A stretch of DNA of 21,072 bases, from positions 1-21,072 of IMG/VR virus record IMGVR_UViG_2648501437_000019. One strand, written 5' to 3'. This document shows positions 1 through 7,554 of this stretch, piece by piece (position 1 is the stretch's first letter; each line of letters begins with the position of its first letter). The position numbers were made by a program, and so were the translations under genes. Source of the DNA: a virus (Duplodnaviria > Heunggongvirae > Uroviricota > Caudoviricetes). Under the pieces are notes generated by a model, which was not told the DNA's origin, did no database searches, and was given only the letters and a program-made list of their open reading frames with translations.

Positions 1-84
1 CACGAATATAATGGTGGGTTACCCCCAAACGAATCGGAAAATCGATACTGGAAAAACTCTAACGCGGTGGCCAGTTTTTGTTGA
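1..84 (+). CDS. IS3-family transposase OrfB, C-terminal fragment (partial, window-truncated)
   Basis: Frame 1 translates to [27 protein letters not shown] then TGA at 82-84, identical to the C-terminus of the minus-strand transposase ORF at 20594-21072. Confidence 0.85.
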   Translation, partial: HEYNGGLPPNESENRYWKNSNAVASFC

Positions 85-92
85 CCACTTCA
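1..92 (+). mobile_element. IS3-family insertion sequence (IS911-like), 3' portion with terminal inverted repeat; 5' part lies outside the window
   Basis: Bases 1-95 are the exact reverse complement of 20583-20677. Terminus ...CCACTTCA at 92 matches the TGAAGTGG... end that I recall for IS911 (from memory, not searched). Contains the transposase 3' end. Confidence 0.8.
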
Positions 93-770
93 ATTCTACC
101 TTTCGCGCCCATTCAGGTTACTGTGCCTGGTTTTTCTTGGAAGCGTGCGATTGACAAAGAGGTGCTAAGAGTTCACATCAAGACTCTCCAGCAATTGCGT
201 GAAATTTCAGTCTCACATAGAGACATTGCTGTAATCTTAGAACACATAAACAATAATCGTGACCGCACAATTCTCGATCCATCGCATTTGGAGGACGAGA
301 TAAGTAAGACCTATAAGCTTACTAGTTTTGTGATGGGCAATTACATTGAGTTTCAGACAAAAACGGTTAGCGACAGAGCATACGGGGAAGCTAAGTTTCT
401 GGCATTTGCAGCACTTTTGTTGTTCGTGTCAGATTGGGACCTCAACATTGCTATTGGTAAGTTTTCTAAGATTGCCAGAGTGAAGGAGGTTGATGACATG
501 CTGGCTGGTAATTTCATTGGTCTTAATCCTTACTTCCGATACGACCTGGCTAATGCAGTGAAGAGATTGCAGGATAACTGGCCGATTGAATACCAAGAGT
601 TGGAGCATTGGAATGTTGAGAAATCCATGCGTGACGCATATGAAAAGTGGCGTGCGACAGAGCCTGAATTCGCTCCACCCCTATTGCCAGACTTGTATAT
701 TGCCAAACATGAGAAAGAAGTCGCACAAGACGAGCAAGTCAGGCAGTGGATTAAGAACGGGGATGTTTGA
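78..770 (+). CDS. hypothetical protein; start uncertain, possibly 5'-truncated by the IS insertion
   Basis: 693-nt ORF whose first 15 nt lie inside the IS (junction at 92/93). The listed start at 78 is TTG; first in-frame candidates after the junction are GTG at 123 and ATG at 333, neither with a convincing SD. No recognisable motifs. Confidence 0.45.
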   Translation: MLTTSILPFAPIQVTVPGFSWKRAIDKEVLRVHIKTLQQLREISVSHRDIAVILEHINNNRDRTILDPSHLEDEISKTYKLTSFVMGNYIEFQTKTVSDRAYGEAKFLAFAALLLFVSDWDLNIAIGKFSKIARVKEVDDMLAGNFIGLNPYFRYDLANAVKRLQDNWPIEYQELEHWNVEKSMRDAYEKWRATEPEFAPPLLPDLYIAKHEKEVAQDEQVRQWIKNGDV

Positions 771-899
771 GTGTAATTAGCTTAATCAATCAGTTGATAA
801 TGGCGGTCACAATTTGATTCTTTTCTATAAGAATCCGTTGATCGCCACTACTCTTCTTCCATACCTGCAATCACACCTTTAAATATCAATAGGTTAGCG

Positions 900-1660
900 T
901 TGTTTATACCAATAAGAAAACAACTAAATAACAGATCAACGAAACGTCAACGCTTTCACCCGATTTGGTCTAAAAAATTGACGTTTTCACACATCACTGC
1001 TTATACCCGTAACTCTACGCAGCAGACAGCGCCACAGAGTCCAATTTTCACCACAGACGACTCAACACACTACCAACAAAAACACACGCTCAAAATCGCT
1101 CCCGCTGCGTTACACAACCATATAAACAACATATTTTCAGGTATAACAAAACAACTAAATAACACATATGCCATTCCCCAAAACAACCAACCTCTTTATG
1201 GCAGGCTACCGAAAAGACCCACCTCTTCTCCCCAGGCTACTGGACAACCAACCTAACTTTCACAGGCAATCCGAAAACATTCATACGCGCGATACCCACG
1301 ACACGCCATTCCCCAAACAGCGAAGAAACACCAGAATCACTGAAACCCCAACGAAGCCTGTAACCGCAAGGATTCTCTCAATCCCAAAAGACTCGAAGCA
1401 TAACAATCACGGGAAACGCCATTACCCAATACACGAATAACTACAAAAGCCTTTCACACACTCCAGACAAACAACTCAAACACAATAACGAAAGGAATCG
1501 CCCACCTGCCATTACTCCATACACGGAGAAGAACAATCACCAAAACGACGAGAACACCCCATAGAAGAACCACCGCAAAACGAACGAAACCACATACACC
1601 GACAGAGAAAACAACACACCCAATTCACCAACAGAAATAGTCGCCGTATAGAACATTCTG
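900..1660. other. G-depleted, A+C-rich non-coding tract
   Basis: The plus strand is about 77% A+C and 10% G in one hand-counted 60-nt stretch (1441-1500). The only ORFs (900-1256, 1168-1440) are low-complexity P/T/Q/N/H-rich with no SD; no minus-strand ORF of 60 aa or more. Contains a 16-bp direct repeat AAACAACTAAATAACA (about 917-932 and 1148-1163). Confidence 0.6.
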
Positions 1661-1752
1661 GAAGGAGTGAGCATTAACGCCTATAGAGAGGTTGAGACAG
1701 ATAAAACACAACATGTATAGCGAAGAAGCCAGGTATGTATAAGTGGGGAGGG

Positions 1753-1777
1753 AAGGAGGGGTGTCGCCTCCTTTTTC
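1753..1777 (+). terminator. putative intrinsic terminator
   Basis: Hairpin AAGGAGG (1753-1759), loop GGTGTCG, CCTCCTT (1767-1773), running into TTTTT (1772-1776). Confidence 0.5.
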
Positions 1778-1840
1778 GTATTTATTCAACTCCTGATTTT
1801 ATCCCCCCGTAACACCCCTACGGTCAGCCTTCGGTCCATA

Positions 1841-1976
1841 CAGGGAAAAGGCTGCATCCCGCTACAGAAACGGCTGGGTTGCCTTCGGGGAACGGCTGGA
1901 GGTTTTCAGGGAAACGGTCGAGTTGCCTGTGTGGATTTCGGGAAAAGGCTCGATGCCGGTTCAGGAACGGTGGCGT
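1841..1976. repeat. iteron-like array, six degenerate direct repeats of GGRAAMGG-CTG with 21-23 bp spacing
   Basis: CAGGGAAAAGGCTGCAT 1841-1857; AGAAACGGCTGGG 1866-1878; CGGGGAACGGCTGGA 1886-1900; CAGGGAAACGGTCGA 1907-1921; CGGGAAAAGGCTCGA 1939-1953; CAGGAACGGTGGCG 1962-1975. The AACGG/AAAGG cores sit at 1847, 1868, 1891, 1913, 1945 and 1966. Confidence 0.6.
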
Positions 1977-2285
1977 ACCGGTATAGCGAGAGGGAGAGTT
2001 GCGGCTACCCACCTGTAATGTGCGGGAAGAAGAGAGGCGCTCACGTAGGCGGACTTGCTTACCGCTGGATTCCCTCTGAATGCCCAGCTACAGCGTAATT
2101 GTGCCAGACAGCCAACGGGTCACAATCGATTTCAGTAGGTTTTCGGGGAGAGGATTATTCTGCCCACCAGCCACCTTCGGCCACTAAATCAGAATAATGT
2201 AAAAAGTATACTCGGTACTGAACCTGAAAACTCACTGCCAAAACCATATTCACCGGAATAAAATCCTTTTTCGCCTGTGCGTTAT

Positions 2286-2294
2286 TGCGATAAT
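2286..2294 (+). promoter_or_regulatory. candidate extended -10 promoter element (TGcGATAAT) upstream of the 2333 gene
   Basis: TGCGATAAT lies about 38 nt upstream of the ATG at 2333; no good -35. Sequence pattern only. Confidence 0.3.
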
Positions 2295-2332
2295 AACACC
2301 ATCAAGAAAACATGTTGTTTAAGGATTGCTTT

Positions 2333-2662
2333 ATGTTTGCAAATATCGACATCAACCAAATCAAGAAATTAACTCAAAAAGAGTTTGATCAGTTTTATGA
2401 GTTAGAAGGTTGGTCTTCCACTCTGATCAATTCAAGATGGGTGCTGGAACTGATGACTCGTGATGACGCACCTGCTTTGATAATTTGCGACATGGGTGAA
2501 GATGCTGACTTTATGGATATGAGCGAATTTTGTGTGGACACATACAACCGCAGCCAGAAGTACTACTTCACATGCGATAGCGAAAATGACGTGATTTCTA
2601 AGGTCTATCTTCACCTCGTCCAGCATTGGGACGTTCAGGAGTTTCTTGAAGTATTCGAGTAA
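2333..2662 (+). CDS. small acidic hypothetical protein (109 aa)
   Basis: ATG at 2333 preceded by AAGGAT SD; the upstream ATG at 2312 has no SD. About 22 D+E against about 8 K+R. Followed by a hairpin. Confidence 0.6.
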   Translation: MFANIDINQIKKLTQKEFDQFYELEGWSSTLINSRWVLELMTRDDAPALIICDMGEDADFMDMSEFCVDTYNRSQKYYFTCDSENDVISKVYLHLVQHWDVQEFLEVFE

Positions 2663-2815: not shown

Positions 2816-3127
2816 ATGAAAAAATCATTGGTTCTTGGTCTGGACAAAGACCAGAAGAGAAAAGAGAAGCCTGCGCTGGTTGCTCAATTAACTTTGCTGG
2901 ACATCGTTGCCAATGGAACCTCTATTCGTCTGTTCCGTGAAACAGCGGTGTCTTTCGATAAAAACACCTTTACTCGTTATGTAATGAATGTTCGTCGCCA
3001 GCGTGGAAAAGGCTGGGTGGCATTTCAAAGAATGTGGCCGGAACATCAGCTCGAACTGGCTTTGATGGAAGTTAACCGCGTGGCCCAGCAAGAGATTCAG
3101 AGAGCATCAGTGATGGCAATAGCCTGA
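2816..3127 (+). CDS. hypothetical protein (103 aa)
   Basis: ATG at 2816 with ACGGAG SD 5 nt upstream (the listed ORF starts at TTG 2786). Terminator immediately downstream. Confidence 0.6.
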   Translation: MKKSLVLGLDKDQKRKEKPALVAQLTLLDIVANGTSIRLFRETAVSFDKNTFTRYVMNVRRQRGKGWVAFQRMWPEHQLELALMEVNRVAQQEIQRASVMAIA

Positions 3128-4287: not shown

Positions 4288-4491
4288 TTATTAAGGCCAT
4301 CAGCATTGGTGGCCTTAAATGACCATCTTGTTTCCCGCAGGCTAAAAACACCAACCTCTTACCTCCAGGCAACCGACAAACCCACCTGTTCCCGTCCGGC
4401 TACCGCAACTTTCCACTTTGACGCCTTATTCGTACAACGATAATTAACACCAACAAGAAAACAATTTGTTATTTACGATAAGGAATTAATC

Positions 4492-4974
4492 ATGAATTTT
4501 ATCGCTACTGTAAACGCACCCGCACATGGCAATATCGCTGTAACGTTCTCTGACATTGAAAAACGAGTACTTGGTGCATGGCGCGACAATGAGACGGTAG
4601 AACTGTCAGCACAAGAAAAATGCATTATTGCACGCGACATCATTGGCAATCGTCGTTACTCGCGGGTATTTGAGAAAGCGTATGTGGTAAATTCTGGATT
4701 CGGAACGTTCGTCTTTCCGGTGCGCTCCGGGCGATTCTGCCAGTCCAAGCTGATTGAGTTCGCTACGCAGATTTCTGTCTGGATTAAAACTCAATCGTCG
4801 TTCAAATTTTCCGACGATGAAGCAGTATCGCAGGGGATGCGGATCGCCAACAATGCAATTAAATGCAAAAACATTACGTATACCGCTGGCGTTGATACAT
4901 GGAAACTGTTTTGCGCTAACTTTATGCTGAATGTATACGCAAGCAACCGCATCCACATCCTTGATGGCGTGTAA
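4492..4974 (+). CDS. hypothetical protein (160 aa)
   Basis: ATG at 4492 with AAGGAATTAATC-ATG SD; followed by a hairpin. Confidence 0.65.
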   Translation: MNFIATVNAPAHGNIAVTFSDIEKRVLGAWRDNETVELSAQEKCIIARDIIGNRRYSRVFEKAYVVNSGFGTFVFPVRSGRFCQSKLIEFATQISVWIKTQSSFKFSDDEAVSQGMRIANNAIKCKNITYTAGVDTWKLFCANFMLNVYASNRIHILDGV

Positions 4975-5008: not shown

Positions 5009-5023
5009 AGCCACCAGCTGCCG

Positions 5024-5105
5024 CAGGGAAATTTTCAGAAGCGGCGAGGAACGTATTCATGAGCCGACGGGGAACGGCCAGGATTTTTTCGGGAAACGGC
5101 TGCAT
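5024..5105. repeat. second iteron-like array, same repeat family as 1841-1976
   Basis: CAGGGAAATTTT 5024-5035; CGAGGAACGTATT 5045-5057; CGGGGAACGGCCA 5068-5080; CGGGAAACGGCTGCAT 5090-5105. Cores about 21-24 bp apart. Confidence 0.55.
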
Positions 5106-5230
5106 TTGCCTTTGTGTAGAAAAAAACATCGGGAAGCTGGTGGAATCCAACCAGCGGTTGTCGGACAGGTGAGCGGGGAAAATTATGATGACTTTCGTCA
5201 CCTGAGACATCCAGATTTCTTTCGTAGCAT

Positions 5231-7029: not shown

Positions 7030-7554
7030 TTAAAATGGAAGGATTCGTTCAACCCAATCGAAGAAAACAAGTATTTTTCTGCCGTCTTCTAACTTAAGAG
7101 TGACCTGGCAAGCATCAACGCCTCTTGACACCCCTTCAATTTCACGACCGTCTGCCATGTAGACCCTTATAGATTGGTCGTTTTGATAAGCCTTGCGACA
7201 TATCGCAAAAAAGTCACGGCGTGATGGCTGATTGTCAACATAGTCTGGATGTATTGTTAGCCTACCTTTGAACTCGCGAGCAATGCCATCGATTACACCT
7301 GATTCAATTGTGCTAATGCGCTCAAGTGGGAGTCTTATACGATTTTCTTTATCATATGGAAGCGGGCATAAATCTAGCTTATTGCGGGAAGGCATTGTCC
7401 CCTGAACGTACATGCAAAACACCTGACCGTCTTCAAGCGTGACTCTTACAGGAATGTTGTTCTTCCGCCAGAACATAAGTATGTTTTCAGCATGTTCGTA
7501 GTCTCGCGGCCAGACTTCAGCCGGTATGCCGTAGGTGATGTCCGATGTTCTCAT
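7030..7554 (-). CDS. hypothetical cytoplasmic protein (174 aa)
   Basis: The start ATG overlaps the upstream stop (ATGA at 7551-7554), so it is translationally coupled. Confidence 0.6.
   Translation of the reverse strand: MRTSDITYGIPAEVWPRDYEHAENILMFWRKNNIPVRVTLEDGQVFCMYVQGTMPSRNKLDLCPLPYDKENRIRLPLERISTIESGVIDGIAREFKGRLTIHPDYVDNQPSRRDFFAICRKAYQNDQSIRVYMADGREIEGVSRGVDACQVTLKLEDGRKILVFFDWVERILPF

What the first reader, a model, noticed from the sequence alone, without database searches (positions are those of the whole stretch)
900..1777. About 750 bp of G-depleted A+C-rich sequence with no plausible coding capacity, ending at a terminator
Phage genomes are normally gene-dense, yet this tract has extreme strand-compositional skew (plus strand about 77% A+C and 10% G in the one 60-nt stretch hand-counted, 1441-1500). 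The only ORFs are low-complexity artefacts of that composition. An internal 16-bp direct repeat (about 917-932 and 1148-1163) and a putative terminator at 1753-1777 are present. If transcribed from the plus strand the RNA would be nearly unstructured and rich in AAC/ACA motifs; as inference only, that is the kind of sequence bound by host factors such as Hfq or ribosomal protein S1. Alternatively it could be a structural DNA element or decayed sequence.
Basis: partly seen in the sequence, partly recalled or inferred. Interest (0 to 1): 0.55.

Follow-up and report, generated by a model that had tools for sequence, protein, structure and literature searches.

The report
Conserved G-poor non-coding tract in phage-plasmid
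A roughly 700-base stretch made almost only of A and C on one strand is a real, conserved, non-coding part of a 1.5-kb control region shared by hundreds of SSU5/pHCM2-type phage-plasmids of gut bacteria; it is most likely a structure-free RNA zone that stops transcription, but its function has not been tested.

Summary
Window 970-1662 is 72% A+C and 12% G on the + strand, and no other stretch of the window or of a complete 111.7-kb relative is comparable. The 16-nt repeat and the terminator at 1750-1777 are also present.

The window is an E. coli SSU5/pHCM2-type phage-plasmid. The tract lies in a 1.55-kb gene-free gap found in 839 PLSDB plasmids and 64 IMG/VR contigs. It is not a decayed gene: no reading frame is conserved, 1-nt indels dominate, there is no 3-nt periodicity and no protein family matches.

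The skew persists in all 56 full copies even where the sequence has diverged to about 60%. Recent mutations erode it and show no strand bias, so selection seems to maintain it. Only the + strand RNA would be structure-free.

Four to six co-oriented GCCATTAC boxes, operator-like motifs at the 5' end and hairpins at both ends are conserved. In lysogens of the 96%-identical phage Cyrano, published RNA-seq gives 0 FPKM over the tract while both flanking genes are expressed.

Best reading (0.35): an oversized Rho-entry, transcription-sink insulator. Rivals are a lytic-phase protein-binding RNA or a DNA repeat array. Canonical Hfq motifs are not enriched.

The parts
801..847 (+). Conserved hairpin or inverted repeat (TGGCGGTCA ... 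TGATCGCCA, with an inner small hairpin) at the left border of the conserved element. It has no U-run. It may protect the 3' end of upstream transcripts, or it may be a protein site.
   Evidence: Fold z = -3.98 on the + strand against -1.95 on the - strand. The 8 outer pairs are invariant in 23 distinct sequences, one of them a G.U pair that would be a C.A mismatch on the - strand. Homology among all plasmids begins at about 788.
912..936 (+). It shares the AAGAAAACAA half of the operator found at the transcription start of early promoters.
   Evidence: Column conservation is 9-10/10 over 38 non-redundant copies.
941..987 (.). Inverted repeat GAAACGTCAA ... TTGACGTTTT, followed by the conserved CTTATACCC (1001-1009).
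   Evidence: The core 5 pairs are invariant and there is little covariation.
1123..1138 (.). Palindromic operator-like site (TAAACAAnnTnTTTTC; AAACAAGTTGTTT in other lineages).
   Evidence: (I1).
1143..1167 (+). Copy 2 of the AAAACAACTAAATAACA box.
970..1662 (+). Core A+C-rich, G- and T-poor, structure-free tract. The continuous C>G zone runs 799-1662.
   Evidence: The composition is conserved in 56 copies.
1170..1182 (+). GCCATTNC box 1 (GCCATTCCCCAAA).
1178..1269 (+). Three tandem 31-nt units (CCnAAAAnACCnACCTCTT...CAGGCTA).
   Evidence: D2. Highly conserved columns 1190-1240.
1305..1317 (+). GCCATTNC box 2.
1418..1430 (+). GCCATTAC box 3.
1508..1593 (+). GCCATTAC box 4, followed by two AGAAGAAC...ACGA.GA.AC repeats (1527-1557 and 1563-1593). 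This is the best-conserved part of the tract.
   Evidence: (D3, D4).
1735..1812 (+). Conserved 3' block (GTATAAGTGGGGAGGG ... CCCCCGTAAC). It contains the purine-arm/pyrimidine-arm hairpin 1750-1777 and a T-run, which together form an intrinsic-terminator-like site.
   Evidence: (z = -3.49 on + against -2.16 on -). The T-run is present in the E. coli and Klebsiella types and weak in the Salmonella/Enterobacter type.
1843..1970 (+). G-rich, strongly foldable array of about six GGGAAA(A/C)GG(C/T)nG units spaced about 22 nt apart. Copy number varies by whole units between lineages, and the array is replaced altogether in one contig (L015).
   Evidence: (D1). A second, smaller array lies at window 5020-5110.
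2283..2321 (+). Promoter and operator of the downstream gene (TGCGATAAT-N9-AAGAAAACATGTTGTTT). It marks the right end of the non-coding region.

Best explanation
The tract is the core of a conserved 1.5-kb non-coding control region of SSU5/pHCM2-type phage-plasmids. The region sits between the variable accessory-gene island (left) and the repressor-controlled early genes (right). Selection keeps its + strand nearly free of G and T. Any + strand transcript entering it, from upstream cargo genes or from a weak local promoter, is therefore untranslated, unable to fold and C>G-biased for about 860 nt, which is several consecutive Rho-loading (rut) lengths. Rho would then terminate transcription and the naked RNA would be degraded back to the conserved hairpin at 801-847. 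The hairpin and T-run at 1750-1777 and the G-rich folded array would serve as back-up stops. The net effect would be a one-way transcriptional firewall that keeps lysogen-expressed cargo transcription out of the early operon. Shown here: the composition, its conservation and maintenance against mutation, non-coding status, strand-specific lack of predicted structure, position and orientation, and absence of RNA in lysogens. Inferred: that Rho is the effector, and that insulation is the selected function. The GCCATTAC boxes are not explained by Rho and probably bind an additional, unidentified factor.
For: C minus G is at least 0.15 per 78 nt continuously from 799 to 1662 (mean 0.20, C/G ratio 2.8). 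Such zones elsewhere in the window are at most about 190 nt, and only 5% of windows of the whole plasmid reach that value. The + strand RNA is the least structured of the window and the - strand is ordinary. No frame is conserved. The skew is kept in all 56 full copies (A+C 64-74%, G 12-19%) and in distant relatives, although variable segments are near saturation. Polarised recent changes run 22 AC>GT against 8 GT>AC, and per-site C>T (0.095) equals G>A (0.098). Mutation therefore neither favours the skew nor is strand-asymmetric. The adjacent upstream gene is on the + strand in 10 of 12 annotated or ORF-scanned contexts, and the downstream genes always are. Cyrano RNA-seq shows the upstream gene at 57 FPKM in LB (up to about 590), the tract ORF at 0 FPKM (at most 14), and the downstream gene rising independently to about 220. 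Rut sites are described as C>G-biased regions of low structure with an optimal length of 60-90 nt (review PMC12360218). A hairpin without a U-run sits at the upstream edge.
Against: The tract is about ten times longer than a rut site needs to be. Rho binding needs no specific sequence, yet 4-6 co-oriented GCCATTAC boxes, 31-nt tandem units and other blocks are conserved to near identity. The conserved operator-like and inverted-repeat motifs at 912-1165 are not needed by a passive insulator. The element persists where the upstream neighbour points away (L010, L078). The RNA-seq values are per gene, of unknown strandedness, and from lysogens only. No Rho-dependence data exist.
Confidence: 0.35

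Rival explanations
1. A lytic-phase (repressor-controlled) long non-coding RNA. It would be transcribed rightward from about 905-915 and end at the 1750-1777 hairpin. It would be kept single-stranded so that its arrayed GCCAUUAC(N)CNAUACACGGAGAAGAACA boxes act as a multivalent platform or sponge for an RNA-binding protein. Candidates are the phage-plasmid's own tandem-Sm FljA-family protein, or host Rho, Hfq, S1 or RNase E.
For: The 5' end carries the AAGAAAACAA motif that sits at the transcription start of at least 6 operator-bearing promoters of the same genome, and two more operator-like sites follow at 1123-1164. The boxes are all in one orientation, 4-6 per element, and are conserved even in the distant Cronobacter sp. 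JZ38 plasmid. Selection for a structure-free + strand fits an RNA. The hairpin at the 3' end tolerates G.U pairs on the + strand only. Silence in lysogens is what a repressed early RNA would show. A core gene 5 kb away encodes an FljA-family protein (a family known as a translational repressor binding the fliC mRNA leader, PMC2652032). Its model is two tandem Hfq-like domains.
Against: No sigma-70-type -10/-35 is found at the 5' end in four lineages. The site lacks the GATAAT -10 and the right operator half present at the bona fide promoters. The tract stays at 14 FPKM or less even in samples where the neighbouring operator-controlled gene rises about 40-fold. (ARN)n Hfq motifs are not enriched. 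The hairpin pairing is only slightly better than expected for purine/pyrimidine arms. The FljA-like gene is kept in Yersinia pMT1-type plasmids, among which no match to the tract was found. The ACCCAATAC match to the fliC leader has a chance probability of about 0.3.
Confidence: 0.25
2. A DNA-level element: arrays of direct-repeat protein-binding sites (GCCATTAC boxes, 31-nt tandem units, 22-bp-spaced G-rich units). These would form a lytic replication origin, a cis-acting replication or partition region, or another nucleoprotein assembly site. The strand asymmetry would serve strand-specific single-stranded DNA binding, or a persistent R-loop or D-loop.
For: The repeats are asymmetric, co-oriented and iteron-like. 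The G-rich units are spaced about 22 bp apart and vary in number by whole units. A second G-rich cluster lies 3.2 kb away at 5020-5110, bracketing the small early genes, reminiscent of the split ori/crr of phage P4 (the comparison is from memory). The absence of RNA in lysogens is compatible. The - strand GC skew of +0.44 would favour R-loops if the tract were transcribed leftward.
Against: Double-stranded binding sites do not explain why non-conserved spacers keep the one-strand A+C bias. GC content (44%) equals the genome average, so there is no AT-rich unwinding element. There is no 10.5-bp phasing. The RepA iterons (ATCCACTATAGAGAGC, flanking repA about 37 kb away) are unrelated to the boxes, and the best tract match has 4 mismatches, like random hits. 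No initiator-like protein was found next to it: the 160-aa neighbour has no fold match, and the other neighbours have no Pfam, NCBIfam or PDB hits. Cumulative GC skew turns at repA, not here. The replication genes (dnaE, DnaB-like) lie 40-60 kb away. Mutation is not strand-asymmetric.
Confidence: 0.2
3. No function of its own: a degraded gene remnant, or a by-product of local mutation bias.
For: Annotators call only low-complexity ORFs or nothing here. No known RNA family matches.
Against: Length, order of blocks and composition are conserved across E. coli, Klebsiella, Salmonella, Enterobacter, Citrobacter, Cronobacter, Kluyvera and Buttiauxella hosts, with many columns above 90% identical in 38 non-redundant copies. 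No intact ORF exists in any relative. Recent mutations erode the skew, and per-site rates are strand-symmetric.
Confidence: 0.04

Closest known systems
Rho-dependent terminators and rut regions (lambda tR1; leader attenuators such as mgtA and corA; Rho silencing of prophage and foreign DNA)
   Same: Untranslated, C>G-biased, poorly structured RNA on the transcribed strand. It lies downstream of a gene and is preceded by a hairpin without a U-run. RNA abundance drops abruptly across it.
   Different: The zone is about 860 nt of continuous C>G, against the 60-90 nt usually quoted. It carries conserved sequence boxes and direct repeats that Rho does not require. Rho dependence is untested.
Untranslated immunity or anti-immunity leaders of plasmid prophages and satellites (P1 immI c4, P4 CI/seqA-seqC, N15 anti-immunity RNA); comparison from memory
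   Same: A long untranslated region in a plasmid prophage with repeated sequence boxes, placed ahead of early genes, where premature termination controls downstream expression.
   Different: Those systems rely on a small structured antisense RNA that pairs with complementary repeats. Here the repeats are direct rather than complementary, and the RNA is predicted to have almost no structure. The downstream genes have their own promoter. No homology was found (Rfam).
Protein-sponge RNAs with arrayed short motifs (CsrB/RsmZ for CsrA; CrcZ for Hfq/Crc)
   Same: Multiple copies of a short conserved motif spread along a non-coding RNA. There is A/C-rich single-stranded context, as in the CA motifs of CrcZ.
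   Different: There are only 4-6 boxes, 45-140 nt apart, in 0.7 kb. No GGA or (ARN)n enrichment was found. No expression was detected in lysogens, and the binding partner is unknown.
Iteron arrays of plasmid and phage origins (P1 oriR/incA, lambda ori, P4 ori/crr)
   Same: Asymmetric direct repeats in one orientation. G-rich units are about 22 bp apart with copy-number variation, and a second cluster lies a few kb away.
   Different: There is no adjacent initiator gene, no AT-rich unwinding region and no DnaA or IHF box cluster. The repeats are unrelated to the plasmid's own RepA iterons. Strand bias of the spacers is not a feature of iteron origins.

Membership tests
Rho-dependent terminator / rut region | C>G-biased RNA segment of at least 60-90 nt | tested here: met
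   C minus G is at least 0.15 per 78 nt from 799 to 1662, with a mean C/G ratio of 2.8. The criterion comes from PMC12360218.
Rho-dependent terminator / rut region | Little secondary structure in the nascent RNA | tested here: met
   Folding energy is -0.07 to -0.14 kcal/mol/nt, the lowest magnitude in the window, and on the + strand only.
Rho-dependent terminator / rut region | Not covered by translating ribosomes | tested here: met
   No conserved ORF, frameshifting indels, no 3-nt periodicity and no family hits.
Rho-dependent terminator / rut region | Transcription enters in that orientation and RNA ends there | tested here: inconclusive
   The flanking genes are co-oriented. Gene-level RNA-seq in Cyrano drops from 57 to 0 FPKM across the boundary, but there is no per-base or strand-resolved data.
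Rho-dependent terminator / rut region | Termination depends on Rho (bicyclomycin or rho mutants) | not testable with these tools
   Needs an experiment.
Intrinsic terminator (site at 1750-1777) | G+C-containing stem-loop followed by a U-run | tested here: met
   Ten pairs followed by CGTATTTATT. The same site is detected in the Klebsiella type. The U-run is weak in the Salmonella/Enterobacter type.
   (ARN)x3-5 counts are at or below dinucleotide-shuffle expectation in three lineages. Only the 3' U-run is present, and only in some lineages.
Iteron-type replication origin | Arrays of direct repeats bound by an initiator encoded nearby | tested here: inconclusive
   Direct repeats are present. 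No initiator-like neighbour was identified.
Iteron-type replication origin | AT-rich unwinding element and host-factor boxes | tested here: not met
   GC content of the tract is 44%, equal to the window average (45%). The DnaA boxes, GATC cluster and RepA iterons are at repA instead.
RepFIB (P1-like) origin or incompatibility region of this plasmid | RepA iterons ATCCACTATAGAGAGC | tested here: not met
   All good matches flank repA. The best tract match has 4 of 16 mismatches, like random sites.
Type III toxin-antitoxin RNA array (ToxI-like) | Near-identical tandem repeats of about 34-45 nt followed by a toxin gene | tested here: not met
   Tandem Repeats Finder finds nothing. The boxes are 45-140 nt apart in divergent spacers. 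Downstream proteins have no family match.
Any Rfam family | Covariance-model match | tested here: not met
   There are 0 matches at gathering score in the window, and only one E = 9.5 match in 700-2400.
Protein-coding gene or pseudogene | Conserved frame, codon periodicity, homologous protein | tested here: not met

The most novel reading that the evidence does not exclude
The tract encodes a new kind of phage regulatory RNA. It would be a roughly 0.8-kb, G-depleted, deliberately structure-free early transcript whose 4-6 co-oriented GCCAUUAC boxes make it a multivalent landing pad or sponge for an RNA-binding protein. The partner could be the phage-plasmid's own tandem-Hfq-fold FljA-family protein or host Rho. 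The RNA would help set the lysis-lysogeny or host-takeover programme of SSU5/pHCM2 phage-plasmids.
Probability: 0.2. Interest if true: 0.8.

Novelty: new variant of a known kind. Interest (0 to 1): 0.58.

Why it matters
SSU5/pHCM2-type phage-plasmids are common in clinical E. coli, Klebsiella, Enterobacter and Salmonella (including S. Typhi pHCM2). This element is present in 839 PLSDB plasmids. Their lysis-lysogeny and maintenance circuitry is almost uncharacterised. Here is a 1.5-kb core region with no gene, no annotation, no Rfam family and no mention in the searched literature. Its one-strand composition is held by selection. If it is a Rho-based firewall, it shows how a mobile element lets cargo genes be swapped and expressed next to lethal early genes. 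If it is an RNA or DNA platform for a dedicated protein, it is a new regulatory part. Either way it is directly testable in the inducible Cyrano/LF82 system.

Tried and rejected
- Rfam at gathering and E-value thresholds found nothing usable. ARAGORN found no tRNA or tmRNA. Tandem Repeats Finder found nothing.
- Fourier analysis showed no 3-nt coding periodicity and no 10.5-bp A-tract phasing, so neither coding nor intrinsic curvature is supported.
- The RepA iteron hypothesis was rejected: the iterons sit at repA and are unrelated to the boxes.
- Cumulative GC skew of the whole plasmid turns at repA, not at the element.
- Strand-asymmetric mutation as in mitochondrial DNA was rejected: per-site C>T equals G>A, and recent changes erode the skew.
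- Hfq (ARN)n motifs are not enriched.
- The 9-mer ACCCAATAC is shared between box 3 and the E. coli fliC leader. I checked it against K-12 sequence, but a match this good is expected by chance with a probability of about 0.3, and the FljA binding-site paper is not held. I kept it only as a lead.
- Covariation tests on the three hairpins were uninformative. The stems are invariant, or are purine/pyrimidine arms whose pairing is close to chance expectation.
- The sigma-70 consensus scan found no conserved promoter on either strand inside the element in four lineages.
- A box-pair scan of IMG/VR (GCCATTAC-N30-60-GCCATTAC) was non-specific.
- The species-representative genome scan found only Kluyvera and Buttiauxella, plus a 604-bp contig in a Catenulispora assembly that looks like contamination.
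- Neighbouring small proteins gave no Pfam, NCBIfam or PDB sequence hits. The AlphaFold model of the 160-aa protein at 4492-4974 had no significant fold match.
- Literature searches for SSU5 or pHCM2 origin, iterons, transcripts or intergenic RNA found nothing on this region. One possibly relevant 2026 preprint is not held.

Full report
**What the window is.** Megablast of 780-2330 hits Escherichia phages CMS-2020a and Cyrano at 96% identity and Salmonella phage SSU5 in part. The gene content includes large terminase, portal, ParB-like proteins, a DEAD-box helicase and an FljA-family protein. Both results place the window in the SSU5/pHCM2 family of phage-plasmids. The finding lies in a 1.55-kb gap between ORF 78-770 (+) and ORF 2333-2662 (+). 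A sensitive blastn finds this gap in 839 PLSDB plasmids from Klebsiella, Escherichia, Enterobacter, Salmonella, Citrobacter, Cronobacter and Shigella, almost always with no annotated gene under it. A motif scan finds it in 64 IMG/VR contigs. Among species-representative genomes it occurs in Kluyvera and Buttiauxella.

**Checking the observation.** Positions 900-1640 are A 40%, C 32%, G 12% and T 16%. A+C stays above 65% from 970 to 1690, and the skew ends near 1660. In the complete relative pLR-48_2, this is the only long stretch with such a bias: the deviation is 0.237, against at most 0.100 outside the element. The 16-mer repeat is at 918-933 and 1149-1164, and the hairpin plus T-run is at 1750-1777.

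**The tract is not coding and not a dead gene.**
- The two ORFs in the tract are not conserved. Stop-free stretches shift position and length between lineages and even within the 96%-identical group.
- Of 223 indels, 107 are single bases.
- There is no 3-nt periodicity.
- Translations match no Pfam or PHROGs family.
- No relative has an intact gene here.

**Composition is conserved beyond sequence.** All 56 full-length copies have A+C of 64-74% and G of 12-19% in the equivalent 630 nt. The divergent Cronobacter sp. JZ38, Kluyvera and Buttiauxella versions are similar. Between lineages the tract is only 59-72% identical. The difference classes approach what two random sequences of this composition would give, so the variable spacers have turned over while keeping the bias.

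I polarised changes inside the E. coli clade with five outgroup copies. This gave 22 changes from A/C to G/T against 8 in the other direction. Per-site C>T (0.095) equals G>A (0.098). Mutation therefore pushes against the skew and is not strand-asymmetric, which points to selection. The numbers are small.

**Which strand matters.** Folded in 200-nt windows, the + strand RNA of the tract scores -0.07 to -0.14 kcal/mol/nt and gives six of the seven least-structured windows of all 21 kb. The window mean is -0.25 with sd 0.05. The - strand RNA is ordinary because G.U pairs form. The adjacent 1700-2000 is the most structured segment. A dsDNA-binding function would not require non-conserved spacers to keep a one-strand bias. 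The simplest reading is selection on a single-stranded + strand molecule, most plausibly RNA. All flanking genes from 78 to about 5000 are also on the + strand.

**Anatomy.** An alignment of 38 non-redundant copies shows, in order:
- An invariant hairpin at 801-847 with one G.U pair.
- An AAGAAAACAA(n)TAAATAAC box at 912-936, repeated at 1143-1167.
- An inverted repeat at 941-987, followed by CTTATACCC.
- A palindrome at 1123-1138.
- Four GCCATTNC boxes at 1170, 1305, 1418 and 1508. Other lineages have four to six. All are on the + strand, and they are kept even in the JZ38 plasmid.
- Three 31-nt tandem units at 1178-1269.
- A very well conserved 1500-1660 segment.
- A conserved 1735-1812 block with the terminator-like hairpin.
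- A G-rich array of about 22-nt units at 1843-1970 whose copy number changes by whole units.

One contig (L015) replaces everything to the right of about 1812. This marks 790-1812 as a separable module.

**A regulon motif.** AAGAAAACA occurs 5 times in the window against 0.43 expected and 11 times in pLR-48_2. At six or more sites it forms [-10 GATAAT]-N9-AAGAAAACAAnTTGTTT just upstream of a ribosome-binding site and start codon. This is a palindromic operator at the transcription start of scattered early promoters, including those of the genes at 2333 and 4492. The copy at the 5' end of the tract has the left half only and lacks a good -10. No sigma-70 consensus promoter is found in the element in four lineages.

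**Expression data.** Table S1 of the LF82 prophage study (PMC9928086) gives values as log2(FPKM+5), with a floor of 2.32.

| Cyrano ORF | Window position | Values |
|---|---|---|
| CYRAN_102 | upstream gene | 6.0 and 5.6 in LB, up to 9.2 |
| CYRAN_103 | 900-1256 | 2.32 and 2.32 in LB, at most 4.27 in ten samples |
| CYRAN_104 | about 1746-2150 | 2.6-4.7 |
| CYRAN_105 | downstream gene | rises to 7.8 |

The tract is therefore dark in lysogens while both neighbours are transcribed. The data are per gene, and lytic growth was not sampled.

**Interpretation.** The best-supported mechanism is an oversized Rho-entry zone acting as a transcription sink. The zone is 860 nt of continuous C>G bias. It is untranslated and unstructured, lies downstream of co-oriented cargo genes, and is preceded by a U-less hairpin that could protect processed 3' ends. 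Intrinsic and structured stops follow it. RNA is lost abruptly across it. This agrees with the textbook description of rut sites. It does not explain the length or the conserved boxes, so I give it 0.35.

A lytic-phase RNA that presents the boxes to a protein is the main rival (0.25). A DNA repeat array, such as a lytic origin or another nucleoprotein site, comes next (0.20). The plasmid's own RepA iterons, DnaA boxes and GATC cluster sit at repA and are unrelated to the boxes. GC skew turns at repA. No initiator-like neighbour was found.

**Side finding.** The core gene at 7030-7554 (-) belongs to Pfam Flag1_repress, the FljA family. It occurs in 831 plasmids, including Yersinia records. Its AlphaFold model has pLDDT 79.7 and pTM 0.78, and consists of two tandem helix-plus-five-strand units. 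Foldseek places it on Hfq structures, with TM-score 0.67-0.84 on the Hfq chain and, for most top hits, rmsd 1.1-1.5 A over about 57 residues. FljA is described as preventing fliC mRNA translation (PMC2652032). This makes a phage-encoded Sm-like RNA binder available. I could not connect it to the tract: (ARN)n motifs are not enriched, and the 9-mer shared with the fliC leader is within chance.

**Verdict.** This is a real and unusual conserved non-coding element. The function remains open, with clear experiments available to settle it.

Noticed in passing
window 7030-7554 (-): An FljA-family protein (Pfam PF03614, 'repressor of phase-1 flagellin') is a core gene of SSU5/pHCM2/pMT1-type plasmids (831 PLSDB records). 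Its AlphaFold model is two tandem Hfq/Sm-like domains (residues about 20-85 and 112-173). The top Foldseek hits are almost all Hfq structures. No solved homologue is detectable by sequence.
   Followed up: yes
window 2283-2321 and 4430-4472; pLR-48_2 (L079-L081) positions 3097, 32782, 71623, 73775, 77011, 91055: A scattered regulon motif: a -10 (GATAAT-like), then about 9 nt, then AAGAAAACAAnTTGTTT, a palindrome at the transcription start and shortly before the ribosome-binding site. It lies upstream of at least six genes around the genome. This looks like the operator set of the family's unidentified lytic repressor, comparable in layout to the dispersed C1 operators of P1.
   Followed up: partly
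window 5020-5110: A second cluster of the G-rich GGGRAACGGC units lies just after the hairpin that follows ORF 4492-4974, where + and - strand transcription units converge. Chi sequences lie on both strands nearby (5012 and 5135).
   Followed up: partly
pLR-48_2 (NZ_AP027545.1) 110,990-111,667 and 1,060-1,450 (L081, L079): A P1-like RepFIB origin. Two sets of 22-bp-spaced iterons (ATCCACTATAGAGAGC) lie upstream of repA and a further set downstream, together with DnaA boxes and a cluster of GATC repeats. The region upstream of repA is the only other spot in the plasmid with marked A+C strand bias.
   Followed up: partly
pLR-48_2 whole sequence: Chi (GCTGGTGG) occurs 25 times in 111.7 kb, against about 3.4 expected from length alone. 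One copy lies on the - strand at window 2163-2170, inside the non-coding region.
   Followed up: no
immediately left of window 790; loci L003-L011, L078: The region just upstream of the element is a cargo hot spot that differs between plasmids. It holds, variously, a GIY-YIG nuclease, a DUF262 protein, a type I restriction-modification system, metG/apbC, IS elements or a DUF4942 protein. Homology between plasmids starts abruptly at about 788.
   Followed up: partly
L084 (NZ_BAAAQN010000196.1, Catenulispora yoronensis, 604-bp contig): A 604-bp contig in an actinomycete assembly carries the enterobacterial element's 5' block exactly. This is probably contamination of that assembly.
   Followed up: no
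window 78-770 (+) / CYRAN_102: The gene directly upstream of the element (phrog_12525, annotated as containing coiled-coil segments) is expressed in LF82 lysogens. It rises about 10-fold in the B6 samples of the published RNA-seq table (log2 9.2), so it behaves like a moron.
   Followed up: no
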